A DNA stretch of 64,000 bases from Plasmodiophora brassicae (GCA_036867785.1 CP145409.1:310001-374000); one strand, 5' to 3'. Counted from the stretch's first letter, positions 25,740-60,902 are shown. Notes: generated by a model from the sequence alone, not told the origin. A program made the numbers and translations.

Positions 25740-26105
25740 GTCGTCGTGTAGGGACGACAGCCGAAACGCAATCGGCGATTCAACCAAATGCCCTCAGCCT
25801 GCTTGCTTGCCGCCCATCCCAATCTGGGGTGTCCATTCTATAAACAGAATTTAGCACCCGGCCCGATTTAGGACCTGCTGCTCCGACCGCCTAACTACCT
25901 ATAGTCGCTCTGCCGTCGACGACATAACGAGGCTGTGGCTGCCTCCCCCCGAATGCACTACTGGCAGTACGTGCCCTTGTTGACACCTGCCTTGGGCGAA
26001 CGTGAAAAGGTATTCTGTATTATAAACGGAACCCGTAGGTAGATCGTGGTCGTGGGCGCCGCCAAATCAGGATGCGCCAGCGTTGTCGTTGCTGACAGCC
26101 CTGCC

Positions 26106-33631: not shown

Positions 33632-33790
33632 ACCTGGTCCCCCACCTCACTATCATGAAAAGCAACACGTTTCCCCATCTAATGCTTCGCTGAGCTGGAA
33701 GCGGACAGGGAGGGGGGGGCCCGCGCTGATCTCCTGCAGGAGCGGTCACGGACCGTGCGCGCGTCACTGGTCCAGCGGGTTGGCTGTCGA

Positions 33791-35060
33791 ATGGTGCTGC
33801 GGCGACGTGCGCGAGAATACCGGCGCGGCGAGCGTCCCTCGTGGGCGCCGGAGGCGTTCACTGAGGAGGCCGCCGTCGAGGAGGAGGAGGAGGAGGAGGT
33901 GGAGCACGATGATGTTGTTGATATCCACGAGGCCGTGCAGCGGGCGCCGCGCGTTCGGCCGACCACGTCGAAGATTCGCATTGAAGCGATTGTGGAGAGC
34001 GAGGCGGCCGTGCCGCCGCCCCATGTCCGGCCTGCTGTCGTTGCCGCCGTTGAGACCGCTGGCCTGGAAGTGCCGGAAGTCGCTGCCGCTAGCGAATCCG
34101 ACGAGGAAGACGTGGATGTTCGCCGGCAACGTGCTCGCATGAAACGCGCCGTCGAGCCTGCCCTGTCGGAGACAGTCGCGCCTGCGGCTGTGGAAGAAGA
34201 GGTATCTGAAGAGGAGGAGGAAGAAACGGAAACGGAGGAGGAGGAGGACGACGACGACTTCCAGGAGTACGGTCGACCGCTGATTAAGCCCGTGTTCGTT
34301 GCCAGGCCGAATCGCAAGACGACTGAAGAACGTGCTGCGCAGGATCAGCTAGAACGAGAGAGGGAAGAACGCGATCAGGCGCAGATTGCTGAGCGAAAGC
34401 GAGAAGCGACCGCCAAGCTGATTGACGTCATCGAACGTGAGGAGCTGGAACAGGAGATGGCCGTCAAAGCGTCGTTGGCCGAGAGGCCTGACGACACCGA
34501 TTATCCCGACGATGAGGTCGAGATTGAGAAATGGAAGCTTCGCGAGATGGTGAGGCTGCTGCGGGACAGGGAGGAGCGCAGACTCGCAGAAGAGGAAATG
34601 CAGGACACCGCGCGTAGAAGAACGATGACCGACGCCGAGATCGAGGCAGAGAAGGCTGCGGCGCGTGCCAACGCTCCTGAGAAGGGCAAGCTGAAATTCC
34701 TGCAGCGCTACCACCATAAGGGCGCCTTCTACCAGGACAAAGTCGATACCGAACTGTTGCAACGCGATTATGCAGCGCCAACCGGCGTCGACGCCGAGAT
34801 CGACCGGGCAGCCCTCCCGGCAGTCCTCCAGGTCAAGAACTTTGGGTTCGCTAGCCGCACGAAATGTACGAACGGGGAACGTTGCCCAGTTTGCTAGGCC
34901 TGGTACTGATCCTCGTTGCCCAGACACCCATCTCGCGGATCAAGACACGTCACGTGACGACCCCTGGGCGGCGTCGGACGTCTCCAGACCCACCGGCTAC
35001 AAGCGCGGCCGCGATAGCCAGAGCTCCGCCAATGGCGATAAGCGCTACCGGCAGAGGTGA
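33791..35060 (+). CDS. MFAP1: microfibrillar-associated protein 1 (spliceosomal B-complex protein)
   Basis: YRRGERPSWA; acidic runs; PLIKPVFV; WKLREMVRLLRDRE; KFLQRYHHKGAFY; DRAALPAVLQVKNFG..RTK|YTHLADQDTS. Confidence 0.94.
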
Positions 35061-35196: not shown

Positions 35197-36978
35197 TCAG
35201 ACCGCGCTCGCGACCTGTGCGTCCCGCCGTCGCGTCAGCCGCTCCTTCGGTTCAACTTGGACGACTGCTTGAGCAGCGCTTTGACGGGGCCCGCCCCAGC
35301 TGCGAACCTTGAAGGTCAGCATGCCGTACAACTGGAAGACGGACGAGAAGATGGGCAGGAACAAGATGTTCATCGGGTACCCGAAGATGACCTTGTAGCG
35401 GTTGATGTGGATTGCCCACGCGCTTACAAAGAACCAGATAGGCACGAAGATGAGGATCGCGAACCCGATCGTCGTGACGGTGCCGTGCCCGAGGGCCGCC
35501 TCAAGGAAGAAGACGTACACGAACAGCGGGCCGTTCTTGAGCGCCAGCAGCGCGATCAGGACGTTCAGTCCGGTGAAGTGCCTCCAGAGGACCGGCGAGG
35601 TCAGCATGTAGACCTCGTTGGTCAGCGTGCCCAGGTACCATCGGCGGCGCTGCTTCATCAGCGACCGGAAGTCCTCGCATCCCTCCGTCTTGCAGCGAGC
35701 GGCCGGGCAGAACCCGATCCGGTACTTGACGGTGCGTGATTCCATCAGCAGGTGCGTCAGGTACCGGTCCTCGCCCAGGTGCGTCCTGTTGAAGTCGAAG
35801 TTGTCCTCGGCGGTCATCTTCCCAAAGTAGGTCGGCGCGACCGCCTCCAGCGCCTCGAACCGCACCATGGTCAGCGCACCGGGCAGGCAGGACACCGCCC
35901 CGAGGTAATCCTCCGTGTTCCTCTGCAACATCTGCGACTCGATATACTCGCTGTCCTGCATCAGCTTGTAGAAGCTGTACGTGCCGGCCGTCTTGCACGT
36001 GATCAGGCCCGTCAGCGCCTCGCGCGTCACGCCCTTGTTCCTGTTCATGTCGTACACGAAGTGCGCCATGGCGGTCTCGTCCAGCTCAATGTCGGAATCG
36101 ATGAACAGGAGCAATGGCTTCGTCGGCATCGACTTGTAGGTGCGCTGCAGGTACTTGAAGGCACACATCTGCGCGTGCCGCTTGCCGCCGTGCTCGAACC
36201 GGCACGGCGTGATGATCAGGTTCCTGTACTTGATGTCGCCGATGAACGGGTAGTCGTCCGCGTTCGACGAGATGCCGAGCTCGGCCTGCCCCTCGTCGGT
36301 CGCCAGCTTGGCGTAGTCAGGATCCGGGTTGCCGCTCGTCAGGCAGTAGATGACGGCCTTGTACACCAGCGTCAGCTTGTCGTCGTCGAACGCCAGCACC
36401 AGGTGCAAACGCTTCTTCGGGTACTTGGACGTCACCACCGAGTTGATGGCGATCATGAGCGTCTCGATCGGTTCGTTGTAGATGGGCATGACGACCGTGA
36501 TCGAGGGTAGGCCGCCCTGTCGCCTGTCCTTGGCGCGTTCCTGGAGCAGCGTCGTGACCTCCTTCGTGCCCGGCGACCGCCGCCAGGCGTCGCTGGCGCA
36601 CCCGATTTTGAACCAGGTCAGGGCGATCAAGACGACGGGTTCGAACTGGAGGAACTGGACGTACTCGTGGTCGAAGATCGACCCCAGGAACGGTTTCTGC
36701 AGCAGGTACAGGCCCTGCCAGTTGACGGTCTGCGCCAGGACGAAGTACACGAACCCGTTATACCCCATGTAGGCGATCAGGAATAGGAACGCCGTCAGTC
36801 GGGTGAGAATCGGGTGCTTGCCCGCCTTCTCGCCGTCGCGAACCACCTTGAACAACGTGATGCAGTACGAGGTGAAGTACGAGAACGCGTGGAAGAACGC
36901 AATCAGCAGGAAGAAGGACACGACGCCGTTGGCCGCCATGACGAAGTTCGGTCCAAGCCATTGGACGGCGTCGACCAT
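35197..36978 (-). CDS. CHS: chitin synthase (GT2), intronless; start may be as far upstream as 37113
   Basis: MPIYNE; HGGKRHAQ; FIDSD; QDSEY; CLPGALT; LGEDRYLT; QRRRW; RSWG. TM helices at both ends. Confidence 0.92.
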   Translation of the reverse strand: MVDAVQWLGPNFVMAANGVVSFFLLIAFFHAFSYFTSYCITLFKVVRDGEKAGKHPILTRLTAFLFLIAYMGYNGFVYFVLAQTVNWQGLYLLQKPFLGSIFDHEYVQFLQFEPVVLIALTWFKIGCASDAWRRSPGTKEVTTLLQERAKDRRQGGLPSITVVMPIYNEPIETLMIAINSVVTSKYPKKRLHLVLAFDDDKLTLVYKAVIYCLTSGNPDPDYAKLATDEGQAELGISSNADDYPFIGDIKYRNLIITPCRFEHGGKRHAQMCAFKYLQRTYKSMPTKPLLLFIDSDIELDETAMAHFVYDMNRNKGVTREALTGLITCKTAGTYSFYKLMQDSEYIESQMLQRNTEDYLGAVSCLPGALTMVRFEALEAVAPTYFGKMTAEDNFDFNRTHLGEDRYLTHLLMESRTVKYRIGFCPAARCKTEGCEDFRSLMKQRRRWYLGTLTNEVYMLTSPVLWRHFTGLNVLIALLALKNGPLFVYVFFLEAALGHGTVTTIGFAILIFVPIWFFVSAWAIHINRYKVIFGYPMNILFLPIFSSVFQLYGMLTFKVRSWGGPRQSAAQAVVQVEPKERLTRRRDAQVASAV

Positions 36979-37241
36979 GGTCTCGTCGAGCGCGCGTAGT
37001 CCACCAACGCGATCTATAATGTCAATGAGGAAACGTAACCGGGATCCAGCGCACTCGATACGAAACCATAACGTCACGCCTAGGACACAGTGGAGCCGAC
37101 GGGCGTGATTCATGCCGGCTCCAACAACCGAACGTCTGCCACCCTCGATCAGCTTCCGGCGCCCCCCTGATGCCTCCTGATGGAATCCCTACGAACTTGA
37201 GCCACTTACCTAGCGATCATCTCACAAGCGTTGCAGAGCGT

Positions 37242-40001
37242 TTATGACATACACTGACTAAGGGCGTCGCGTGCCTCGTAGAAGTCTGAATTGGAGCGGG
37301 AGTCGACCTCCTGTTTGAGGAACGTGATGGCGGCCATGTTGTACCCGACGAGGTCCTTCTGCGCCCGCAGCCGCTGACGCATGCGATCGCGAAGTGTGAC
37401 GAAGTGGGGGCCCATCTCGTCGGCGGCGATCAGGCGCTGGTGGTGCGTCTGCAGCAGGAACAGGACACATCGGACATAGAGCTCAATGGCATCGCCTTGC
37501 AGAAGCATGTCCTCCAGGATCAGCAGCAGGCGCTTCGCGTACGTGAACGGCAGGACAACAAGGGCTACCTCGAGCTCATTCGGGCGTGCCTCGCTCAGGA
37601 CCTTGGTCATGAATGCGAACGGTGTCAGGCCGAGGAGCATCGGGTTCGATGACGGCTTGTCCGGTGTTCGACCTTCGAGGGACGCCAGCTCGGCTTCGAC
37701 AAAGTCGATCGCCTCCATGAGACGCTCACCGGTTCGCACAGTGGCCAGCGACTGCTTGTCGACGGCACTGGCCGACTGGAACGTCGTCGGGTCGGGCAGA
37801 CCGGACTCTGGCAGAGCGCCGACAACGCCAGCAGACTCCTTCTCGACCACGCCTTCTTCGAACAGCTCCTCCAAGCGTGTTTCCCGCTCCTCCTCCAGGA
37901 ACACTAAACGTGCAGGTTCAGACCAGGGGTTGAATTCCGATGCAGGCGACGCTACGGTGTACCTTGCTCCTCGGTTTCCGACCAAACGCGAATGGACCGA
38001 TCGTTGCCAGCGCTAACGAGCGTTCGTCCTGCTCGACTGACCGCCAAGCCCCAGACCTCTGCCTGGTGCCCAGACAGGGCGTAGATCTGTTCGAACTTGT
38101 CCGCATCCCAGAACCGAATCTGTGAACTCGTCAGCACACGGAACTCGACAGCACACACACACAGAGTTCATCACCTGCTTGTCTTTGCTGGCTGTGAACA
38201 CGTAATGTGTACCGGGGACGAACTTCACGGCCATGACACTGTCGTCGTGCGCCAGCAGCGACTTATGGCAGTCACCGAAATCCAGACCCCAGATCTTCAG
38301 GCTCTTGTCGGCGCCCGCTGAGCACAGCAACGTCCCGTCCGAGCTAATGTCCATGCAGAGCGCGGGCAGGCGGTGCCCGTACAGCGACAGGTAGAACTTC
38401 AGTGAGTCTTCATGGAACACCCGAATCGTAGCGTCCAGCATCGCCACCGCGACGTAGCGACCATCGGGGCTGAACTTAACGAACAGCACGTCTTCGTCCA
38501 GGCGTAACGTTCGCGAATGGACAGCGCCCAGCGTTCGGGTTCGCTTTCGGGACGATGTAGGTTCGCCGTCGGCATCCGCCTTGTCGATCAGCTCGAAGAT
38601 CCAGAACTTCAGGTCGTGATCGGCACCTCCAGTGACGAACCCACGACCGCTCGGGTGCACGTCGATCGACCACAGCGCGCCTGAATGCGCTTCAATGCGC
38701 TGGAGAAGCTGGGCGGAACCAAGCGAGTAGAGCTCCAGGTGCCCGGTCTTCGTACCGACAAGGACGTGCTGATCGCCAGGGACGAAGGCAATACAGAGAC
38801 CGTACCCAGACGGCAGTGTTCGAACACAGCGTTGGGTGGCCAGGTTCCAGACCTTAACGCTGCCGCGCGAAGCCGACGCGATCATGGTATCGTCGCGGCT
38901 CAGACAGACGGCACGAACGCCGGACCGATGGCCGGCCTCGTCGATCACATGGACAGGCTTGCTGATCTCGTCCGTTCCGTCGCCGCTGACGTCAAAGACG
39001 GCAATGGAGTTATCGGCGAGGCCGACCGCCAGACGGTCACCGGACGCGCTGAACGATCTCTGCTTGTCCTCGGTGCGGACGACGCGCTGCGATTCCAGGT
39101 AGTCGGCGGCCTGGACGGTGACCTCATCGGCACCAGCCGTATTGCCCTTCTCGCGCAGGCGCCTTTGCCGACGTTGCACCTTCTTCTTGATCTCGTCCTG
39201 GGTCCTGGCTCGGAACAGTTCCAGGTGGTTGCCGGTGCCCTGAACGAGCAAGCGCGACCCGCCAGCGGAGAACCGAATGCGGTTGACGCGAGTCTTGTCC
39301 GATCGGGGAATAACGCCCAGAAGGACAATGTCGGCGTTCGGGTCGGGAATGGACCACAGACGAAGTTCGGCATCGGTGGACCCGGTCACGAGGAATTGAC
39401 CATTGCCGTCGACGTCGAGGCTCCAGACCTCGGCATGGTGCCCGACGAGCGTCTGCGCGCAGTGCTGAGTTGTCAGCTGCCAGCGCTTGACGAACGTGTC
39501 CTTCGACGACGACAACAGGGTATTGTCCCCAACGAAACAGACATCGGTGACGGCGTCAATGTGCCCACGCAATCGAAACAAACCCGCCTGCGCAATGACG
39601 TCCCACATGATGATGTCGGTATCGTTCGACCCGGACGCGAGTCTCGACCCGTCTTTGTTAAAACGCAACGCGCTAACGGCACCTCGGTGCCCATTCAAGG
39701 TAACGATACACGTGGAGTCCGCCGTGTTCCAAAGACGGATGGATCCGTCCGAGTACCCAGCTGCGGCAGCCCCATCTGGTCCAACCGCGATTCGCGTGAC
39801 GGAGATCGGCCGTTCCTTAGACGTACGCTCAGGCGACATGCTGGTCACTAGAGCGCCTTGCTTGACATTCCAGACTTGAAGCGATTCCAACGATCCGGAT
39901 AGAACGAGACGCCCGGAAACATCAAATACGACGTCACTCGTTGGCGAGTAAACGACGCCGAAGGACGACGATTGCTCATAGCGCAAGTACGCCTTGACCA
40001 T
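37242..40001 (-). CDS. WDR3: WD-repeat SSU processome protein WDR3/UTP12/DIP2
   Basis: MVKAYLRYE; many GH..WD repeats; FYLSLYGHRLP; KIWGLDFGDCHKSLLAHDDSV; LEEERETRLEELFE; C-terminal Utp12 domain ELEVALVVLPF..DLVGYNMAA. The 3' end may include one more exon. Confidence 0.95.
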
Positions 40002-40279
40002 GCCGGCGACGGGTTCTCTCACCAGCAGCCGGTTTCCAGGGGGACTGCGGGAAGTCCGTCACGGACTCCGTCGCGGAGTTCGCTCGCTGATAGTGATAAG
40101 TGATGGCTCGGAGCAGTAGGTATGTAGGTGGGTACGGTAATGATTGAGCCGCGCGTGCTCTGGTACAGGACACCGAACCAAGCATCGCGGGTCGCCTACG
40201 CCTGGTTTGAGATCGGAGTGCAAACTCCTGTTCGCCGCCCTCGGTGTACCGTGACGAGTGATGCCCTGGCTGTGCTGTC

Positions 40280-52911: not shown

Positions 52912-54929
52912 CAGGCATCTTAAGTTTAGCATTGTTTGCTGAAATGTCTAAAATTTCGGGTCTCTCAAAATAGCTAAAATTTCGAAAGTTCAGAACTGGA
53001 CTGCACAGGTCTTCGGGAGGGCATTTCGCGCCTCTCCGACCGCTCGGAGTTGTGTGACGCACAATAATTGTTGTCCGTTGAACTGCGTTGGGAGCGCGAA
53101 GATGAGGTCGACGTCGTCGTCTGCGCCGGTATCAACGACTGGCGGTGGGGCACCTGCTGAACCATCAGCGTCGTTGAGTGAGTTGTGGAATGACGCTGTG
53201 CTCTCTGCTGTTTGTGACGTAGTAATTTGGATATAGAACGCGCGGCTCCTGACAATGCTGATGACAACCCACCAAAGAAGTTGTCGGGCGGCTTTAAGCT
53301 GAACCATCGGCAACAGTATGGTCTGGTGAACAGCGACCGAGACCCCGGCACGTCCGCCGTTACGGGAGTCAAGTGTCGCTGCTGCATCACCTTCGGTCGC
53401 GAGGTCGAAACGTGTAAAACGCAATGGACGTTTAAAGGGCCACCATTCAGGACTTACAATTATCGCGTTCATCTTGAGAAGCAACACGCCAGCAAGTGGG
53501 CGACGTATCAAACCCTGTCCGATGCGGAGAGGGCTGTGTTCTTCGACGTGCCCGTCAAGGAGGCTGAAACTCTGCCTTTTTACTTCGGCGCCCGCTCGGA
53601 ACAGTTGGAATTCAAGTTCGACAAACCGATCGTTGATGCCTTGATCGGTCAGCTTCTGTGGCGTCCTGAGGACGTTGGTACCTTGGCTTACACCAAGGCA
53701 ATGTCAATTTTCCAACTCGATGGCACTGGCTCGGGTTACACTGCGACCGTAAAGGAGGCGAAACAGTTCCAATTGGTAATCCGTTTCCTTGCCCGGGGGA
53801 TGTCGTTCCGGATGGCCACCTCTGCGGTCAATGATGCGAAGCTTGTTACTGGGTATGCGAAGCTTGGGTGCGCTTCGGAAGTTAAAGTTGCAACGTTCGC
53901 GCGCATCCAGTGTGCTGCAAACTTCCAGTCGCTCGCTTCTTGTCTTCGTCGTCAATGGGCTTTCTCGATTGCACTCGATGGCGCGGTGTGCGACGGTACT
54001 GGCTATATCGATGTACGGGTTCGATTCTGCGACGCCGGCCGGATGCAGAATCGACATGTCATTGCCGCTCCGTTGTTTGGCTCGCATACCGGCGAGGCCA
54101 TGTTCAACATGGTGTGCCAGCTCTTCGATGTTCTCTGTCCAACGTGGACAGAGCACATTATCGGCAGTTCAACCGACGGTGCTGCTAATATGACAGGTAA
54201 GGATAACAAATGGAACTCCAGAGCATGACCTGATTTCGATATCTCTATCGCAGGCCGATTATCAGGCGTACAGACACGATTGCAAGCGGTGGCTCTTCCT
54301 GGGTTTATGCGAATCTGGTGCTACTTGCATCAGTTGGACTTGGTCCTGCAAGACTCCTACCAGAATTTCGATGGGGACCATTTCTACCGCCAAACAACTG
54401 CTACCATCTCGCACCTCAGGCGTCAGTACTCTCTGATTGGCGAGATGGGTGAGACTTGCCCAGCGCTGTCCAAGACGCGATGGTCATCAATGGCACGGGT
54501 AACCACATTCTTCCATTCGAACAGGGACAGGCTGATGAAGCACTATCATGGCCGGTCTGATGCCCCATCGCAGCGCTGGTGGTTGACGAACTCAGCGTTG
54601 AACGTCGTCGCAGTCATGGCCAGCGAAACGGTTGCACGCTGTCAGGGCAAGGAGGCGCTTTTCGGGCACCAGTTCGCTGAACTTCGTGGGCTTTTTCATC
54701 AGGTGAAGAAGCTGGCGTTCGCAACCGAATCTCACCCAACGACCGCTCTGTGTATCGACGAGTTCGTTGATATGATTGTCATCGGCCCGTGGACTTTCCG
54801 GAAGGACAATCTGAAGGGGATGTTGATGGATCAGGGCCTCTTTGAGGCGGAGGCGGTTGAAGGCCTGGACGTCGAGGATGTCGACTTTGTGGTCCACTCT
54901 ACGGCGACGTTACTGTCAGGGATTATGTC
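52912..54929 (+). mobile_element. 5' part of the same hAT transposon in opposite orientation; transposase with two introns, truncated
   Basis: Terminus CAGGCATCTTAAGTTTAGCATT at 52912, ATG at 53102. Zinc-finger-like CRCC..HLEKQH; SIALDG; STDGAANMTG|RLSGVQTRL; WCYLHQLDL (CxxH); TRWSS. Confidence 0.9.
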
Positions 54930-55008
54930 ACATAATCCCAAGAGGCCCTGATCCATCAACATCCCCTTCAGATTGTCCTTCCGGAAAGTCCACGGGCCGA
55001 TGACAATC
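54774..55008. repeat. fold-back inverted duplication
   Basis: 54940-55008 is the exact reverse complement of 54774-54842 (69 bp). 54919-54939 is the palindrome GGGATTATGT-C-ACATAATCCC. Confidence 0.95.
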
Positions 55009-55235
55009 CAGCGACGCCTTGGAACGCGACGTCATTGGAAGAGATGAAGGTAAAGCAGACCAGCCCGACGACAACGATAAGCAGGTACATGACTACGATG
55101 CCAGAGATATCACAGTACGTATGTTGAGGAGTGTTGATATATGAATCTAAGGCATTTGCCGCCACGCTTCGGTTCCCGCTGTGATGCATACTTGACGTCG
55201 TGTGTTCCTCGCTCCCACTGCCTTTTGCCCTGGGT

Positions 55236-58200
55236 CTAATCGGCTGTCTTCGCATGGGCATCTCCACGAGTGTACTTGAGAGCCACCGTGGTGATCACAC
55301 CGGACGCCAGGTTCCTGCACAGACACGCGCGCGCCCCTGTCAACCTATGTGGCTGATTGCAATCTCCCGACGTCCCATACGATAGCAGGATGTAGACGAT
55401 GATCATGTACGACATGAAGTACAAGGCGATGTTCCACGACGTGACCTGGATCGCTGCATACATCGTCGCGTGCCAGTTCTACACGATCGGTCAGCGTGTG
55501 CCGCTCTCAGCACCAGGCGCGGTAGTTGGCTCCTGTGCTTACATCGCTGACGAGCAGTTGCGTCAGGCCCAGGAACGCGTTCGCCAGGTTGTCGAAGTTG
55601 GACGGTGGCACCGCGCCGACGAGCATCCGCTCGAACCTGTGCGCCAGCATCTGCACGCCGACCATCGCATAGATGTACATGACGAGGAGCAGCAGCACAA
55701 CGAGGTCCTTGATCACCGGTACGACCCGGAACGTGCCGAAGATCAGGTGTCGGGTCGCCACCGTCTGCGTCACGATCCGGACGACGGGCAGGGCGGCGTA
55801 GAACCGCTCGTTGTTCTCGTTGTCGGTGTAGTGGAACCGGAACCCGGTCATGGCCTGCCCGGCCAGGCTGCCGATGAACGCTGCCCCGACGACGATGGCG
55901 TCGTACCGGTTGGCGAATTGGATCTCGGCCGCCCACCGCCCGATGTTGTACCGGGAATAGTTCCAGAACTGGGACGGCGCGTAGACGGCCACCTTGACGA
56001 GCATCTCCAGCGCCGACACGACGACGAACGCCAGGCAGGTCCGGTCCAGGTTGCGAGTCGTCGCCTCGTCGGACACGCCGTACAGGGCGACGACCCCGAT
56101 CAGGCCGATCGTCAGCAGGCGCCAGACGTGCAGGTAGAACGGGTTCTCGAAGAACAGGCCGCGGGCGTTCGCGCGCCAAGCGCTTCGCACCGGCTGCTGG
56201 ACGATGGTGGACGCGAGCACGCGTTCCGCCCCCGATATGAACCCGTCGACGTCGACGAAGCGCTTCGGCGGGCGCCCGCTGCCGGCCTCGTTCGACAGCG
56301 ACGACTTCTTGTCGAGGTCGCCGACGGCGGCGTCGACGTCCTCGGAGGCGATCGCCGGGCGCATGAACCGAAGGAAATGGTGGAAGTCGCCCATGGACAT
56401 GTGGCCGTCCTCGTCGTAGTCGAGGAGGACGAAGGCGGCGACCATGCCGGCGCGCGCCAGCACGCGCTTGTGGATGTCGACGGCGGCGCGCTGCCGCTCG
56501 AACGCGGCCTGGAACGTGCCGATGACGATGCCGAGGATGATGAACATGCCGGCGCCGACCATGAACGCGATCCAGACGACGTTGAACGCGTTCACGGCCG
56601 GGTACTGCATCTCGTGGTAGTTCTCGGCGGTCGACATGACGACGAAGCAGGACGAGATGGCGCGGACGACGTTCGTGAAGCTCGAGTTGAGCTGGTCGGC
56701 GTTGACGTCGGCCCGGAACACGGCCAGGCTGATGCACCCGCAGACGACGACCATCAGCAGGTACAGGAGCGACGCGTCGAGCGTGTCGTAGACGGTGCGG
56801 GCGAACAGGCGGACGCTCTCGCGCGTGCCCGCGTTCGACAGGACGTACAGGAACGGGCGGCACGGGACGTAGTACTCGATGCTGACGTTGCCGGCGACGA
56901 TCGCGATCCAGTCGACGACGACGACGGCGAAGACGACGATCAGGCCGATGTCCTTGACCTGGATCGTGCGATGGTCGTCCCACTTCAGGTCGGCCTGCAG
57001 GCGCACGCTGCGAACCGCGATGTACTTCGTGGCGAGGCGGGCGCCGATGAACAGCGCCTCGATCACGAGGCAGACGGCCTCGGCGACGACGACCGAGGTG
57101 GTGGCGCCGCCGGCCAGCAGGTCGCCCAGCGTGGCCGGCTTCGCGAACGACAGGCAGATGTGGACCGTGATCGTGACGGTCAGGGCCCATTTGACGACGG
57201 GCCTCTGGATCAGGCGGTAGACGCGAAGCGGGACCCGGGTCGGCAACTTCTCCAGCAGGCAGATGTGGGGAACGTTGAGCCCAGCGGCACCTGTGATGCC
57301 CCCCTCCCCATCGTCAGTGGCGGCGAACGTTTTCGCGTTCGGCCCTCGTACCGTCGACGATGTGGCGTCGGGCGCGATCCCAGGCGTGGCGCCGGAAGAG
57401 CTGACTGCTGATCGGGTGGTCGACCTGCCTCAGGACCTGCTGCTGGTACTCCCAGTCGGCGGCACGCGCCTCCTGGATCGTCGTCTGGATCGCGACCTTC
57501 AGGTCCGACGCCGTCCTGTACTTGACCCGTTTCTGGCCGCTGCGCCGATGTCGGATCGACGTCATGATGGTCAGCATCGACCCAGGGCCGCTCGTCGGCC
57601 GCTTCCCCGTCGTCGTCGTCGCTGTCACCCCGGCGGCCGACCGCCGACCGGCCCAGTCGAGCACGAGCATGAGGACGACGGTGAAGACGGCAATGACGAG
57701 CGTCAGGGTGTGGCGCTGGTCGGTGGCGCCGGATAGGTCGGAAACGGGGACGAGAGCGGCCACGATCCAGTCGTTGCCGTTGGCCGCATCGGCCAGGCGG
57801 ACGGCCCAGGTCAGCGGTTTCAACGTGTCGCGCTGGACGCTGGAGACCGATGTCGTCACCGAGGCAATGTTGGCGTTAGCTTGCAGGAGGAACATGGCGA
57901 GGTGCCGAATGATCGTTTCCGTCGACGTGGCGGTCGCGTCCGCGGTCGGCGCCGTCCCGTCCGACGTGGTCGACGCGACCAGACGCAGGCCCGACCCGGT
58001 GTCCTCCAGTACAATGCCGACCGCGTTCGGCGACACACGCCCCATCAGGGACCGCAGCCTGGCGACGATCACATCCGACCCGAACTCGACGGAGACGCTC
58101 CCGTTGCCATACGCCAGCGACGTCACGTAGACGGCGCCCGATCCGGTCGGCAGGTACGCTGTCCTGGTCGACGACGCGCGCGCCACCTTGTACCCGCAAT

Positions 58201-60641
58201 CGATGACGACGACGCCACCCGACGCGTTCCTCTCCGTGTAGCACGACGACGCTCCTGGGCTCCGCTCGATGGTCAGCGTCTCCTGGCCGGCCACCCTGAT
58301 GCCGGACATGAACCCATCGGGGCGCGTCACGTAGATCGCCGACGGAAACGCCGACGACCGCGTCCACAGCGATGCGACCGAGGCCATCGCCGTCGCGTCG
58401 GCCGCACGCGCCGCCTCCGCCACGACGGTCTTCGAGGCCTGCAGCAGGCCAGCGACGTCGGTCGCCGCCTGCCACGCCACCGACTCCACGACACGGTCGC
58501 GCTCGACGCCGCCGATCGCCCCGAGCGCCTCCATCCACGCGACCCAGACGACGGCGGGGACCAGAACCAGCACGACGAACGCGACAGTGGCGGCGGCGGC
58601 GGCGGCGTCGCCGGAGCCGTCGTCGTCGGAGCCGCGGCCGGCGCGCCACCGGCCCGCCGCGAAGACGACCGTGGCGATGCAGAACACGACGAAGACCGCG
58701 CCGGTGCCGATCGTCAGGAGCGCAATGCGCTTCCCGTACGTGGCCGGGAAGTCGTCGATGGCGAAGGCCGTCATCAGAGACAGGCCCGATGTCGCGCGGA
58801 ACGACGACGACTGCGATGCGGACGGAGGCGGGGCGGTGCCGTTGCCGCCCAGGAGCGCGCTCGGCAGCGTGCTGGCAACGACAGCGGCGTCGTCCATCAC
58901 GACGACGTCGACGTTCGGGCACGAGCCTACGCTGCTGGACAGGGCCTGCAGAGGGACGCCCGCACCGACGCGCCGCGTTGCGTTGATGGGCGAGACGACC
59001 GCGTACCCCCTGCCGCCAAACGGCAGGTCCACGATCGCGGTCCACAAGGTTCCCGCCGACGGAAACGGGGCGATCAGACGCCCGCAAGGCCATGCGCTGC
59101 CGGTGCAGGGCGGGCGCGTCACGACCGACTCGTTACGAACGGCGGCGGCGGTCACGTAGCCGGCGTTGTCGACGACGAACAGGCTGGAGACGTCGGGGAA
59201 CAGCTCCAGCTGGTCGGCGAGGGCGTCCGGCGACGTGAACCGACTGGCGGCCAGCCTGGCGAGCGTGTCGGCGTCGCCGGTCAATGCGCTGATGCGGTTC
59301 TGTGCGACCACGATGGACGTCGCCTGCAGGACGCGCTGGGGACCCGATACGGCCGCGCCGAACGACGAATGGCATTGCCAGATGAGGAGGACGACGCCGA
59401 CAACGCCGACGAGGACGACGAGGGTGGTGAACGTGCGGCTGGCGATGGTGGCGGCCACCCGGCCGTACTTGTCGCGAAGGTCCCGGACGAGGGTGGCGTT
59501 CTCGGCGTCGATGATGTCCTGGCTCCTGCGATCGGCATCGGGCAGGGGCAGGCCTTCGTACCGGTCCAGGACCGTCGGACGGAGATGGGATGGCATCTTC
59601 GTCATGCGCGTCTCGCTGCGATACAGCATCATGGCGAGGACGTTGTCGATCAGGTAGAGGAACCCCTCGCAGGCGGACAGGTTCGGCTGGGCTTCGACGT
59701 CGCGCAGCAGGGCGATCGTCGTCGCCGCCTGCTGTATCGCGGCACACGCCTCGTGCGTGTACCGCTTCGCGTGCAGATGCATCGGCCGGAACAGGAACTC
59801 GCACAGCGCCCTGTACCGCGCCTTCTCCCGGTGCGTCGGCTGCGCCGTCTGGCACAGACCCGACAACGACGCCCGGTGGTCGTCGTTGTCGGGCGCGAAC
59901 ACCGACAGGAACTTGCGGAACCGCTCCATGGATGTTGCCATCTGGACGGCGCTCCACTCCTGCGGAGGGGGCGGAAGAGTCAGCACATCAGCGACGACCT
60001 GACCAGCGACGGTTCGCCGCTGCACTGACCGCGTAGGTCGCATGGACTGCTACAGGGTCCGCGTCGCCGGCGGAACCGCCCGGCAGCGTCAAGACAGTCG
60101 CTCCCGTGGGCAGCACGATATCCAGCGTCGGCTGGTAGACGACCGCGTTGGCGTTCGTGGCCGTCGACGACCGCGATCTGTACATGGAGCGCAGGGCGCC
60201 GTGGATGTGCGGTTTCCTGACGGCGACGTCTTGTGGCGGGCTGGCGGGTGGTGCTGGTGGTGAGGGCGTTGCCGCTGCTGGCACGGAAAGCGTTCGCCGG
60301 TGCTGGGTGATTCGGGCGTGGCCGCTCAGGATCTCGTGGAGGCGAGCGGACTCCCGCGGGGGCATGTACTCGGTCAGGAACGCGCCGATGCCGATGCCGT
60401 TGAGCAGGTCCAGGGCGCAGACCAGGCGCCAGGCCTGGTTGATCATCGGGTCATCGTCGAGCGACCGTGACGACCCGCCCTCCGAGAATAGGTCGCTGTC
60501 CTCAGTCGTATCGGGGAGGTGGGCAGACGCGGTACCGCCACCCTGATGGGCGTCCCGGTCGTCATCCCAGGGGAACGATGGCTCTCGACGAATCGGCCCT
60601 ATAGACACCTTTGTCGACCCGTCGTCGATGACGTCGCCCAT
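55236..60641 (-). CDS. two-pore channel (2x6TM with EF-hand linker) fused to an N-terminal module of four TM helices and two Cache-like domains
   Basis: ORF 55507-57246 has pore 1 FVVMSTAENY, EF hand DYDEDGHMSMGDF, and pore 2 NFDNLANAFLGLTQLLVSD|NW. Intron 57291-57351 (GTACG..CACTGAC..CAG) joins it in frame to ORF 57314-60043. A further intron near 59965-60030 joins the 60641 start exon. Confidence 0.8.
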
Positions 60642-60902
60642 GGCATCACGGGTAGTACTGATCAACCGATCGACCTGCCCGTTATACGGTCGTCAGCGTG
60701 TAATGTGCCCGCGTCACATTACCGCTGGGCGCCCCCCGTACCATCGAAGGTGCAATAGGAAGTGGCCGGCAGGACCCATTCATCGAAGCTGGCAAAGGGA
60801 TTGATGCCAATCCGGATCGCGAAGTGCACAACGGATCGCGTCTCAGCCCCGGTGGATTTATCATCATCGTAACGTCGGCGGTGATCGCACCCGGTTCGGC
60901 GG

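What the first reader, a model, noticed from the sequence alone, without database searches (positions are those of the whole stretch)
55236..60641. Two-pore channel covalently fused to tandem Cache-like sensor domains: candidate ligand-gated TPC
Seen: a 61-nt intron (57291-57351) with a branch point joins two long ORFs in frame (..RARRHIVD/GAAGLNVPH..). The spliced order is cytosolic N-terminus, TM1, domain A, TM2, short loop, TM3, domain B, TM4, linker, then a complete 2x6TM channel with EF hands. Domain A (PDVSSLFVVDNAG..WTAIVDLPFGGRGYAVVSPI..VGAGVPLQALSSSV..VVVMDDAAVVAS) and domain B (AIYVTRPDG..RTAYL..VSVEFGSDVIVARLRSL..IVLEDTGSGLRLVAS..WIVAALVP) follow the dCache pattern of chemoreceptors, degenerately. 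Four extra helices keep the channel N-terminus cytosolic and put both domains on the luminal or extracellular side. Known: Cache domains bind small ligands, and in animal Ca2+ channels they sit on a separate alpha2delta subunit; canonical TPCs have no such extension. Inference: a one-chain chemosensor-channel. I do not know of this architecture having been described.
Basis: partly seen in the sequence, partly recalled or inferred. Interest (0 to 1): 0.9.

Follow-up and report, generated by a model that had tools for sequence, protein, structure and literature searches.

The report
Two-pore channel fused to Cache-like sensors
A eukaryotic gene makes a single spliced mRNA for a two-pore cation channel that has two bacterial-style, outward-facing sensor cassettes built onto its front end, a design I could not find described in print and which suggests a channel that senses chemicals directly.

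Summary
A five-exon minus-strand gene (60641..55236, 1714 codons, no internal stop) has four GT..AG introns of 61-70 nt. The 61-nt intron at 57351..57291 joins the two long ORFs in frame. Contigs from 4 of 4 public runs laid, from 4 studies, lack that intron and introns 3 and 4. One contig spans the whole coding region with all four removed.

The C-terminal ~640 aa are a two-repeat Ion_trans channel with an EF-hand loop. Its only solved-structure hit is TPC3. Upstream lie TM1, domain A, TM2, TM3, domain B and TM4.

The Cache reading is partly supported. Neither window domain matches Pfam at E<=10, and both AlphaFold models failed (pLDDT 34 and 32). However, a 2107-aa homologue (P0007) has the same layout and passes Pfam's dCache_1 threshold in domain B. 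Window domain B is homologous to that domain, and its nearest language-model neighbours are dCache_1 clusters. Domain A rests on weaker leads.

Ten literature searches found no Cache-channel fusion. Ligand gating is inferred, not shown. Verdict: a real, expressed, rare architecture; a new variant of known kinds.

The parts
60030..60641 (-). Exon 1 (204 codons from ATG 60641): start of the cytosolic N-terminal region
   Evidence: First in-frame ATG after the upstream stop. 612 nt, frame 0. A conserved stretch aligns with the N-terminus of P0005. Spliced to exon 2 in contigs of runs X1 and X6.
59960..60029 (-). Intron 1, 70 nt, GTCAGTG..CGCAG, CTGAC 20 nt from the acceptor
   Evidence: Skipped in contigs of 2 of 4 runs laid (X1, X6); the other two runs have no cover there.
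59435..59959 (-). Rest of the cytosolic N-terminal region (aa 205-379), with a conserved motif block (LRDxExQPN..GFL..IDN..A..LYR); no known family
   Evidence: 35% identity to P0005 over 142 aa, E 3e-25. Weak match to P0007 residues 164-248, E 0.004. No Pfam or NCBIfam hit.
59372..59434 (-). TM1 (aa ~380-400)
   Evidence: Hydropathy peak 2.53. 4 K/R in the 15 aa before it and 1 after it.
58721..59371 (-). Domain A (aa 401-617, 217 aa): extracytosolic, candidate degenerate Cache-like module
   Evidence: Lies between TM1 and TM2. 3 N-x-S/T sequons and 3 Cys. 33% identity to domain A of P0005 over 187 columns. The nearest language-model clusters of that P0005 domain include dCache_1 and MCP-like_PDC_1. 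No Pfam hit at E<=10. AlphaFold pLDDT 32.
58547..58720 (-). TM2, a 20-aa Arg-rich cytosolic loop, and TM3 (aa 618-675)
   Evidence: Hydropathy peaks 2.44 and 2.64. Loop composition.
57707..58546 (-). Domain B (aa 676-955, 280 aa): extracytosolic, diverged dCache_1-like sensor domain
   Evidence: Aligns with P0007 domain B at 26.6% identity over 274 columns. Smith-Waterman z 13.5. P0007 domain B passes the Pfam dCache_1 threshold. Language-model neighbours are dCache_1 clusters, top score 0.96. No direct Pfam or PDB hit. AlphaFold pLDDT 34.
57352..57706 (-). TM4 and the first part of the basic cytosolic linker (aa 956-1073), end of exon 2
   Evidence: Hydropathy 2.47. The linker has K+R 24 against D+E 8. 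It aligns with P0006 and P0007 through to the conserved ICLLEK..PLRVY motif.
57291..57351 (-). Intron 2, 61 nt, GTACGAG..CACAG, CTGAC 23 nt from the acceptor; holds an in-frame TGA if retained
   Evidence: Skipped in one contig in each of 4 of 4 runs laid.
55543..57290 (-). Exon 3: rest of the linker, channel repeat I (S1-S6, pore I), EF-hand linker, repeat II up to the pore-II helix
   Evidence: Pfam Ion_trans 7.7e-18 in 2 stretches; EF-hand_6 0.017, below threshold. The only PDB hit is TPC3 6v1q, 9.5e-7, colinear over residues 99-553. 31% identity to P0007, 2e-86.
55479..55542 (-). Intron 3, 64 nt, GTAAGCA..TGTAG
   Evidence: Skipped in 4 of 4 runs laid.
55381..55478 (-). Exon 4: selectivity filter II and most of IIS6
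   Evidence: Aligns with the pore II and S6 of P0007. Spliced in contigs.
55315..55380 (-). Intron 4, 66 nt, GTATGGG..TGCAG
   Evidence: Skipped in 4 of 4 runs laid. Read through unspliced, this intron would also stay in frame (read from the sequence).
55236..55314 (-). Exon 5: end of IIS6, a short C-terminal tail, and stop TAG at 55238-55236

Best explanation
This is one gene for one 1714-aa membrane protein. It has a cytosolic N-terminal region of no known family, then two cassettes of the bacterial receptor type (TM helix, extracytosolic Cache-like domain, TM helix), then a basic cytosolic linker, then a TPC-type two-repeat voltage-gated-like cation channel. The channel has one canonical EF-hand loop and acidic residues in both selectivity filters. 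Shown here: the gene structure, the splicing into one mRNA, the channel identity, the predicted topology, and conservation of the whole layout in a distant homologue whose sensor domains are recognisable dCache_1. Inferred: the channel works as a dimer like other TPCs, and the Cache-like domains face the lumen of an acidic organelle or the outside of the cell. Binding of a small molecule, or another change on that side, would shift TM4 as it shifts the last helix of bacterial Cache receptors. The conserved linker that runs into IS1 would pass this on to the gate, together with cytosolic Ca2+ acting at the EF-hand. In the window's own copy the sensor domains are strongly diverged, so its ligand competence is uncertain.
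For: Gene and transcript: in-frame five-exon model of 5145 nt with no internal stop. GC3 is 0.88-0.96 in all parts. Contigs lacking introns 2, 3 and 4 stand in 4 of 4 runs laid, from 4 studies. Intron 1 is skipped in 2 of 4. One 15974-nt contig spans 55200-60700 with all four introns removed.

Channel: Ion_trans 7.7e-18 in 2 stretches. TPC3 is the only PDB hit, colinear over both repeats. 34% identity to the P0007 channel over 632 columns, including exons 4-5. EF loop DYDEDGHMSMGD; filters ..STAENY.. and ..VSDNW...

Topology: four hydropathy peaks of 2.4-2.6. K/R-rich flanks lie on the predicted cytosolic sides. There are 5 sequons and 5 Cys in the two domains, against 0 sequons in the loop and linker.

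Conservation of the fusion: P0007 (2107 aa) has Ion_trans 5e-48, dCache_1 1.3e-12 (48.2 bits, threshold 45, 2 stretches), MCP-like_PDC_1 5e-10 and EF-hand hits. Its domain A alone gives dCache_1 4.3e-4. Its domain B plus the following TM matches the sensor part of the bacterial phosphodiesterase GepA at 1.5e-8. The P0006 fragment (177 aa) runs in one frame from the end of domain B through TM4 and the linker into the channel's first conserved motif.

Window domain B: BLASTP 6e-13 to P0007. Domain-only Smith-Waterman z 13.5, 0 of 200 shuffles. Language-model neighbours are dCache_1 clusters; top score 0.96, and 10 of the ten best hits with a family share one clan.

Window domain A: its orthologue in P0005 has a top score of 0.97, with 8 hits in a dCache_1 set and 4 in an MCP-like_PDC_1 set. 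A colinear local alignment to window domain B gives z 5.7, 0 of 200 shuffles.
Against: Neither window domain matches any Pfam family at E<=10, any NCBIfam model or any PDB sequence at E<=10. Both AlphaFold models were unusable (mean pLDDT 34.2 and 32.0), so the fold was not tested. hhalign does not confirm that A and B are paralogues in the window (P 0.28 for single sequences, 0.55 for thin profiles). Window domain A shows no detectable similarity to P0007 domain A (z 1.2; 31 of 200 shuffles reach the score). In one search only 1 of the ten best hits with a family shares a clan with the best, which the tool reads as 'that family is probably wrong'. In the MAFFT alignment, window domain B lacks about 46 residues that in P0007 hold the RxWY pocket motif. 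Between two strains or close species, the listed changes in domain A are 11 nonsynonymous to 1 synonymous (10 differences were not listed by the tool). That fits relaxed constraint as well as it fits diversifying selection. IIS4 keeps few regularly spaced basic residues (read), so voltage dependence is uncertain. No experiment bears on ligand binding, gating or location.
Confidence: 0.55

Rival explanations
1. A built-in auxiliary module rather than a ligand sensor. The two extracytosolic domains are degenerate Cache relics that serve folding, trafficking, glycan shielding or assembly of the channel, much as the Cache-bearing alpha2delta subunit supports Cav channels. On this reading they do not gate the pore in response to a small molecule.
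For: The window's domains have lost all profile-detectable Cache signal. In the alignment, domain B lacks the RxWY pocket segment. Domain A shows mostly nonsynonymous change between close strains (11 of 12 listed codons). Both domains carry sequons and Cys typical of structural ectodomains. Alpha2delta's known role in channel trafficking comes from the passages of PMC8915833 and the search listing of PMC12303104.
Against: The distant homologue P0007 keeps a threshold-passing dCache_1. By my manual reading against the motif definition, it also has a near-complete amino-acid-binding pattern (FxxxxRxWY..Y..D). That argues the ancestral module was a working sensor. The TM-domain-TM cassette form is the signalling form found in bacteria. 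TM4 and the linker are conserved in window, P0006 and P0007.
Confidence: 0.25
2. The window's domains A and/or B are not Cache-fold at all. They would be lineage-specific ectodomains of another or no stable fold, and the resemblance to chemoreceptor patterns would come from composition (Ala/Val/Ser/Gly-rich, beta-prone sequence).
For: There are no Pfam, NCBIfam or PDB hits. AlphaFold confidence was about 32-34. hhalign gives no signal for A against B or A against P0007. Language-model neighbours are leads only; by the tool's own statement, a first hit of 0.95 or more occurs about once in 100 shuffled proteins.
Against: For domain B, homology to a Pfam-verified dCache_1 domain is significant without the TM and linker parts (z 13.5). 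The HMMER hit to P0007 is 3.3e-5 against 1.84 billion sequences. The alignment covers P0007 residues 1101-1173, which lie inside the Pfam match 1062-1173. This rival is therefore credible mainly for domain A.
Confidence: 0.15
3. Artefact: two neighbouring genes (a sensor-like membrane protein and a TPC) wrongly merged, or a non-functional locus.
For: If intron 2 is retained, the frame stops 13 codons later, so a sensor-only product is conceivable. The runs' kind is only guessed to be RNA. Logan contigs cannot show transcript ends or rare isoforms, and 74 rows of pieces were not shown.
Against: Exact removal of a GT..AG intron that restores the frame is seen in 4 of 4 runs from 4 studies. There is no stop in 1714 codons, and GC3 is uniform across parts. 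The same fusion stands in P0007 and across the junction in P0006.
Confidence: 0.03

Closest known systems
Two-pore channels (plant TPC1, animal TPC1-3)
   Same: One chain holds two 6-TM Ion_trans repeats. It aligns colinearly with TPC3 (PDB 6v1q) as the only solved-structure hit. An EF-hand sits in the inter-repeat linker, as in plant TPC1. The profile that includes P0007 hits Arabidopsis TPC1 chains at about 1e-22.
   Different: About 1070 extra N-terminal residues with four more TM helices and two extracytosolic domains. Acidic residues sit in both filters (..TAENY.. and ..SDNW..; P0007 has ..TGENY.. and ..GEGW..). As I recall, not from a call, canonical TPCs carry Asn-rich filters there. 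Few regularly spaced basic residues remain in IIS4.
Bacterial dCache_1 receptors (chemoreceptors, sensor kinases, c-di-GMP enzymes such as GepA)
   Same: The cassette form is TM helix, periplasm-side Cache domain, TM helix, placed N-terminal to the output module. P0007 domain B passes the Pfam dCache_1 threshold and matches the GepA sensor region including the following TM.
   Different: The output is an ion channel, not a kinase, MCP or cyclase module. Two cassettes stand in tandem. The host is a eukaryote. The window's copies are too diverged for Pfam.
Alpha2delta and CACHD1 (Cache-bearing partners of Cav channels)
   Same: Extracellular Cache domains are associated with a voltage-gated-type cation channel.
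   Different: Those are separate polypeptides. According to the passages read in PMC8915833, every eukaryotic dCache_1 protein those authors found has a VWA domain inserted. No VWA family was found here in P0002 or P0007, and the domains are covalently part of the channel chain.
Dictyostelium TPC2 (DDB_G0289105, UniProt Q54HZ8)
   Same: An amoebozoan TPC with EF-hands that is unusually long. The knockout description replaces amino acids 216-1645 'to remove all predicted transmembrane domains' (PMC6977259, passages). It may therefore carry a comparable N-terminal extension.
   Different: Its sequence could not be reached with these tools, so homology of the extension is untested. The passages I read discuss only the 12-TM core. 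The term 'N-terminal' does not occur in the main text.
Ionotropic glutamate receptors (analogy only)
   Same: A bacterial-type extracellular ligand-binding domain is fused in one chain to a pore of the P-loop channel superfamily (recalled, not from a call).
   Different: The binding fold is unrelated (periplasmic-binding-protein type), the pore class and topology differ, and there is no homology.

Membership tests
Two-pore channel (TPC) | Two Ion_trans (6-TM, P-loop) repeats in one polypeptide | tested here: met
   Pfam Ion_trans 7.7e-18 in 2 stretches. Twelve hydropathy peaks after residue 1105. Colinear alignment to TPC3 6v1q over residues 99-553. Exons 4-5 supply pore II and IIS6 and align to P0007.
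Two-pore channel (TPC) | Closer to TPCs than to other voltage-gated-like channels | tested here: inconclusive
   The only PDB hit of P0003 is a TPC. However, the profile that holds P0007 scores four-repeat Cav chains higher (1.6e-32) than TPC1 (5e-23), which may simply reflect four repeats against two. No phylogeny was made.
Two-pore channel (TPC) | EF-hand pair in the inter-repeat linker (plant TPC1 type) | tested here: inconclusive
   Pfam EF-hand_6 0.017 and EF-hand_7 0.03 are both below threshold. One canonical DxDxDG..D loop is visible in the sequence. The second hand is degenerate.
Two-pore channel (TPC) | Dimeric assembly, endolysosomal or vacuolar location, gating by voltage, NAADP or PI(3,5)P2 | not testable with these tools
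dCache_1 (Pfam PF02743, Cache superfamily) | Match to the family profile at or above the gathering score | tested here: not met
   Window domains A and B: 0 families at E<=10. Whole of exon 2: none at E<=1. The feature is met only by homologue P0007 (48.2 bits against 45).
dCache_1 (Pfam PF02743, Cache superfamily) | Homology to a verified member | tested here: met
   Domain B only: BLASTP 6e-13, HMMER 3.3e-5 database-wide, domain-only z 13.5. Domain A: not met against P0007 domain A (z 1.2).
dCache_1 (Pfam PF02743, Cache superfamily) | PDC/Cache alpha-beta fold (long N-terminal helix, one or two PAS-like modules) | tested here: inconclusive
   AlphaFold mean pLDDT was 34.2 for domain B and 32.0 for domain A. 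No fold search was run on such models.
dCache_1 (Pfam PF02743, Cache superfamily) | Extracytosolic position between two TM helices | tested here: met
   Hydropathy. Charge distribution, sequons and Cys. This is a prediction only.
dCache_1AA (amino-acid-binding subclass) | AA_motif Y121, R126, W128, (Y129), Y144, D173 in PctA numbering (PMC8915833, passages) | tested here: not met
   In the alignment, window domain B lacks the RxWY segment. Only the Asp of the G-x-D block is kept. By eye, P0007 domain B has FxxxxRxWY..Y..D, which I did not verify by structural alignment.
Alpha2delta / CACHD1 | VWA domain inserted in a dCache_1 domain | tested here: not met
   No VWA family appears among the Pfam hits of P0002 or P0007.

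The most novel reading that the evidence does not exclude
This is the first recognised family of eukaryotic P-loop cation channels gated directly by covalently attached, bacterial-type Cache chemosensor cassettes. It would be a luminal or external nutrient or chemical sensor wired straight to Ca2+ release. The family may include the unusually long Dictyostelium TPC2 that controls mTORC1 on starvation. If so, a lysosomal amino-acid sensor and the channel that signals to mTORC1 would be one polypeptide. The family would also be a free-standing precedent for the Cache-channel partnership seen in alpha2delta-Cav.
Probability: 0.25. Interest if true: 0.9.

Novelty: new variant of a known kind. Interest (0 to 1): 0.68.

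Why it matters
TPCs are known to be gated by voltage, Ca2+, lipids and NAADP through accessory proteins. None is known to have an ectodomain ligand sensor. Cache domains are the main extracellular chemosensors of bacteria. In eukaryotes they are described chiefly on the separate alpha2delta and CACHD1 proteins, always with a VWA insertion according to PMC8915833 (passages).

A single chain that joins uninterrupted, TM-flanked Cache cassettes to a TPC would be a new route from chemical sensing to cation flux. It would make the question 'what do eukaryotic Cache domains do to channels?' testable in one protein. It would also be a plausible product of bacterial gene capture.

The possible link to Dictyostelium TPC2 and mTORC1 gives an experimentally tractable system, if the link holds. 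The main caution is that the window's own copy is the most degenerate of the three relatives seen.

Tried and rejected
- AlphaFold2 of domain B (3-row alignment A1) and domain A (2-row alignment A6): mean pLDDT 34.2 and 32.0. The models were unusable, so I ran no fold search on them.
- PDB sequence searches with domains A and B: 0 hits at E<=10.
- A PDB profile search with A1 returned only channel chains, because the profile kept all P0007 columns.
- Pfam and NCBIfam on the window's sensor part: nothing.
- Homologue searches:
  - P0002, near lengths: self only.
  - P0007 residues 300-1420, near lengths: self only.
  - P0007 residues 895-1245, shorter proteins, E<=10: none.
  - Full HMMER scan of 1.84 billion representatives: 4 hits including self.
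- Two metagenome scans (alignments A4 and A5) found no relative.
- hhalign of thin profiles did not confirm A/B paralogy in the window.
- MAFFT of domain A with whole P0007 gave a stretched, unusable alignment (A2).
- No RNA holder is on record for the stretch; all runs were 'RNA? (a guess)'.
- No whole genome is held for the window.
P0007 exceeded the Atlas length limit.
- Supplementary datasets of PMC8915833 (Dataset S3, the eukaryotic dCache_1 proteins) are closed. They might list proteins of this architecture.
- Considered and rejected:
  - Alpha2delta-like membership, because there is no VWA domain.
  - A coding role for the long plus-strand ORFs 55396-57411 and 57737-60028, which are GC shadows.

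Full report
**1. The observation**

The gene lies on the minus strand. Two long ORFs, 57314..60049 (911 aa) and 55507..57429 (640 aa), are separated by a frame shift. The sequence between them reads ..CACATCGTCGACG|GTACGAG...CTGAC...CACAG|GTGCCGCT... The GT is at 57351 and the AG ends at 57291, so the intron is 61 nt.

Removing it joins ..RARRHIVD to G-AAGLNVPH.. in frame, with the Gly codon split 1+2. Left in, the frame meets a TGA 13 codons later.

Three more introns have the same style:
- 60029..59960 (70 nt)
- 55542..55479 (64 nt)
- 55380..55315 (66 nt)

Each is GT..AG and has a YTGAC 12-25 nt before the acceptor. The five exons give a CDS of 5145 nt, or 1714 codons plus a stop, with no internal stop.

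**2. Is it more than chance?**

ORF length alone is not evidence here. This stretch is 68-70% G+C and carries long ORFs in other frames and on the other strand, for example 57737..60028 (+) at 763 aa.

Three things go beyond chance:
- **Codon bias.** GC3 is 0.79 in exon 1 and 0.88-0.96 in every other part of the annotated frame. The alternative ORFs have their G+C peak at codon position 1, which marks them as shadows of the true frame.
- **Family matches.** The channel part matches Pfam and known relatives (see section 3).
- **Public transcript contigs.** 20 of the 24 runs listed, from 9 studies, hold at least half of the sampled words of 55200-60700. I laid four runs from four studies.
  - All four have a contig that skips exactly the 61-nt intron, the 64-nt intron and the 66-nt intron.
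  - The 70-nt intron is skipped in X1 and X6. X5 and X11 have no cover there.
  - One X6 contig of 15974 nt spans 55200-60700 with all four introns removed.
  - One X1 contig of 3349 nt spans 55200-58689 with three removed.

The runs' kind is only a guess ('RNA?'). Contigs cannot show transcript ends or rare isoforms, and 74 piece rows were not shown. Even so, clean removal of four GT..AG introns is what cDNA gives.

**3. The channel**

Exon 3 (P0003) matches Ion_trans at 7.7e-18 in two stretches. It also has EF-hand hits below threshold, at 0.017 and 0.03. Its only PDB hit at E<=0.001 is a TPC3 structure (6v1q, 9.5e-7), aligned colinearly over residues 99-553 and so across both repeats.

The spliced C-terminus aligns with the channel of P0007 at 34% identity over 632 columns. 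This includes pore II and IIS6, which are encoded by exons 4 and 5, and so independently supports introns 3 and 4.

Read from that alignment:
- One canonical EF loop (DYDEDGHMSMGD).
- Filter I is ..STAENY.. (P0007: TTGENY).
- Filter II is ..VSDNW.. (P0007: VGEGW).

Both filters carry an acidic residue. As I recall, not from a call, that is more like Cav EEEE-type filters than the Asn-rich filters of canonical TPCs. IIS4 keeps only two regularly spaced Arg.

A profile that contained P0007 scored Cav chains (1.6e-32) above Arabidopsis TPC1 (about 5e-23). Four repeats against two could explain this. I made no tree, so the finer placement is open.

**4. The N-terminal 1070 residues**

Hydropathy gives four strong peaks (2.4-2.6) at about 380-400, 618-636, 657-675 and 956-974. 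They bound domain A (401-617, 217 aa) and domain B (676-955, 280 aa).

Several features fit both domains being extracytosolic and the channel N-terminus being cytosolic, as a TPC requires:
- Basic residues cluster before TM1, in the TM2-TM3 loop and after TM4.
- The linker has K+R 24 against D+E 8.
- The two domains hold 5 N-x-S/T sequons and 5 Cys, while the loop and linker hold no sequons.

This is a prediction, not a measurement.

**5. Relatives**

A full HMMER scan of 1.84 billion representative proteins with exon 2 (P0002) found four hits:
- The window's own ORF.
- P0005: 753 aa, E 1.6e-19.
- P0006: a 177-aa fragment, E 7.9e-9.
- P0007: 2107 aa, E 3.3e-5.

Word-indexed searches added none, and two metagenome scans found none. 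The database consists largely of prokaryote-style gene calls, so the rarity partly reflects poor sampling of eukaryotes.

**P0007** has the same layout: a cytosolic N-terminal region, TM 301-319, a 332-aa domain A, TM 652-672, a long acidic loop, TM 872-891, a 360-aa domain B, TM 1252-1271, a linker, then the channel. Its Pfam hits are:

| Family | E-value | Note |
|---|---|---|
| Ion_trans | 5e-48 | |
| dCache_1 | 1.3e-12 | 48.2 bits, gathering score 45, two stretches, best at 1062-1173 |
| MCP-like_PDC_1 | 5e-10 | |
| EF-hand families | 0.0044-0.036 | below their thresholds |

Its domain A scanned alone gives dCache_1 4.3e-4 and MCP-like_PDC_1 1.1e-3, both below threshold. Its domain B plus the following TM matches the sensor part of the bacterial phosphodiesterase GepA at 1.5e-8. 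Its two domains resemble each other (z 6.9; hhalign P 9e-4).

**P0006** runs in one frame from the end of domain B through TM4 and the linker into the ICLLEK..PLRVY motif at the start of the channel.

**P0005** shares the N-terminal region (35% identity, 3e-25) and domain A (33% over 187 columns). After that its gene model looks unreliable.

The fusion is therefore conserved in at least two organisms besides the window's, and probably three.

**6. Are the window's own domains Cache-like?**

Direct tests failed:
- No Pfam family at E<=10 for either domain.
- No NCBIfam hit.
- No PDB sequence at E<=10.
- AlphaFold gave mean pLDDT 34.2 for domain B (3-row alignment) and 32.0 for domain A (2-row alignment).

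Indirect evidence for domain B is good:
- BLASTP to P0007 gives 6e-13 over window P0002 604-869 against P0007 1101-1364. This overlaps the Pfam match at 1101-1173.
- With TMs and linker cut away, Smith-Waterman gives 107 against a shuffle mean of 35.4 (z 13.5, 0 of 200).
- MAFFT aligns the whole domain at 26.6% identity over 274 columns.
- Its protein-language-model neighbours are dCache_1, MCP-like_PDC_1 and dCache_1_like clusters. The top score is 0.96, and 10 of the ten best hits with a family share a clan. The tool notes that shuffled proteins reach 0.95 about once in 100, and that all-ten agreement occurs in a third of shuffles, so this is a lead.

In the alignment, the window lacks about 46 residues that in P0007 carry ..FDFTDRLWYQ...

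Evidence for domain A is weaker:
- Its orthologue in P0005 has neighbours that include dCache_1 (8 hits) and MCP-like_PDC_1 (4 hits), but also CHASE9 and HK_sensor_dom_bact. Only 1 of the ten best hits with a family shares a clan with the best.
- A colinear local alignment of window A to window B covers the N-terminal helix, the FP..y..d.G strands and the G.(D)V....L......v.v.D....vAST block. It scores z 5.7, 0 of 200 shuffles. hhalign does not confirm it (P 0.28 and 0.55).
- Window A shows nothing against P0007 A (z 1.2; 31 of 200 shuffles reach the score).

I put domain B at about 0.8 and domain A at about 0.55-0.6 for belonging to the Cache superfamily.

**7. Constraint**

The X6 contig differs from the window at 32 listed codons, 13 synonymous and 19 nonsynonymous. 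By region:

| Region | Synonymous | Nonsynonymous |
|---|---|---|
| Domain A | 1 | 11 |
| Domain B | 6 | 4 |
| Channel core | 2 | 2 |

Many of the domain A changes fall in its Ser/Pro/Ala-rich tail. The tool did not list 10 further differences, and the numbers are small. For domain A this fits relaxed constraint or diversifying selection. It does not fit a tightly conserved pocket.

**8. How it most likely works**

Shown: one mRNA, one frame, the channel identity, and conservation of the cassette-channel order.

Inferred from established knowledge of the families:
- TPCs are dimers.

Here TM4 follows domain B and leads through a basic, partly conserved 130-aa linker into IS1. I therefore propose that events on the luminal or external side bias gating through TM4 and the linker, together with cytosolic Ca2+ at the EF hand. 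I give the ligand-gating step about 0.35-0.4.

The main rival is a built-in auxiliary ectodomain of the alpha2delta kind with no ligand role. The degeneracy of the window's copy fits that rival better.

**9. Comparison with what is known**

This is a TPC-type channel by the tests I could make. It is not an alpha2delta/CACHD1 relative, because no VWA domain was found.

The passages I read of Gumerov et al. 2022 (PMC8915833) state that in all eukaryotic dCache_1 proteins they found, a VWA domain is inserted. P0007 has an uninterrupted, TM-flanked dCache_1 and departs from that.

Upadhyay et al. 2016 (PMC4822843, passages) limit eukaryotic Cache to alpha2delta, histidine kinases and an adenylate cyclase.

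Literature searches gave the following:

| Terms | Result |
|---|---|
| 'two-pore channel' + 'Cache domain' | 1 paper, an alpha2delta review (listing only) |
| 'dCache' + 'eukaryotes' + 'ion channel' | 7 papers held, 6 listed; none on a fusion, judged from titles and abstracts |
| 'dCache_1' + 'Ion_trans' | 0 |
| 'Cache domain' + 'TPC' + 'protist' | 1, on histidine kinases |
| 'Acanthamoeba' + 'two-pore channel' | 0 |
| 'Cache domain' + 'Amoebozoa' | 6 papers held, 5 listed; none on a fusion, judged from titles and abstracts |
| 'dCache_1' + 'cation channel' + 'fused' | 0 |

The searches 'two-pore channel' + 'oomycete', 'Dictyostelium' + 'two-pore channel' + 'TPC2' and 'DDB_G0289105' supplied the papers below. 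The oomycete Ca2+ review (PMC4820453, passages) and the diatom Ca2+-channel paper (PMC11085791, passages) do not contain the word 'Cache'.

One lead stands out. The Dictyostelium TPC2 knockout paper (PMC6977259, passages) replaces amino acids 216-1645 to remove all predicted TM domains. That protein is therefore at least 1645 aa, as long as this family. Its N-terminal part is not discussed, and I could not obtain the sequence.

**10. Verdict**

The architecture is real and conserved, and I could not find it in print. The Cache identity is well supported for the family and for window domain B. It is weak for window domain A, and the fold itself is untested. Ligand gating is a reasonable but unproven mechanism.

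I rate it a new variant of known kinds (TPC plus bacterial-type Cache cassettes), with interest 0.68.

The organism was not determined. The gene content of the window (a PPR-DYW deaminase, a chitin synthase 2), the high G+C and the short introns suggest a free-living protist. An amoebozoan is my guess only.

Noticed in passing
window 26043-28589 (+): An 848-aa open frame encodes a PPR-repeat protein ending in a DYW nucleic-acid deaminase domain (PPR 2.5e-29, DYW_deaminase 1.1e-19, E motif 8.6e-4). This is the type of organellar C-to-U RNA editing factor best known from land plants, here in what looks like a protist genome.
   Followed up: no
window 35197-37188 (-), 38013-40058 (-), 33683-34897 (+): Neighbouring frames match Chitin_synth_2 (2.6e-22), WDR3 beta-propellers (1.5e-132 and 1.4e-108) and MFAP1 (2.1e-51). 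These are ordinary eukaryotic genes with no evident link to the channel.
   Followed up: no
P0007 residues ~1058-1130 (domain B): By eye, the homologue carries FxxxxRxWY, then a Tyr 17 residues on, then the Asp of a G-I-D block. That is five of the six positions of the amino-acid-binding AA_motif defined in PMC8915833 (sequence). This homologue may sense amino acids; the window's copy lacks the segment.
   Followed up: partly
window 58721-59371 (domain A) against 57707-58546 (domain B), run X6: Between the window and the X6 contig, the listed codon changes are 1 synonymous to 11 nonsynonymous in domain A, but 6 to 4 in domain B. The tool did not list 10 differences. Domain A evolves fast or is relaxed.
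   Followed up: partly
window 55396-57411 (+), 57737-60028 (+), 55403-57313 (-), 57876-59132 (-): Long ORFs of 418-763 aa overlap the gene in other frames. Their G+C peak falls at codon position 1, so they are shadows of the GC3-rich true frame and not genes.
   Followed up: yes
window 56000-60000 against the rest: The channel gene is markedly richer in G+C (0.68-0.70) than most of the window (0.53-0.66).
   Followed up: no
window 53218-54951 (+): Two consecutive open frames (336 and 240 aa) lie just downstream of the gene's 3' end. The first has no Pfam hit and the second was not scanned. Their nature is unknown.
   Followed up: partly
window 60030-60641 and 59435-59959 (aa 1-379): The cytosolic N-terminal region has no known family but shares a motif block (LRDxExQPN..GFL..IDN..A..LYR) with P0005 and, weakly, with P0007. 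It is a conserved third module of the family with unknown role.
   Followed up: partly
run X6, record 17: The spliced contig that covers the whole gene is 15974 nt long and extends about 10.5 kb beyond 60700. It probably joins neighbouring transcripts, so it should not be read as one mRNA.
   Followed up: no
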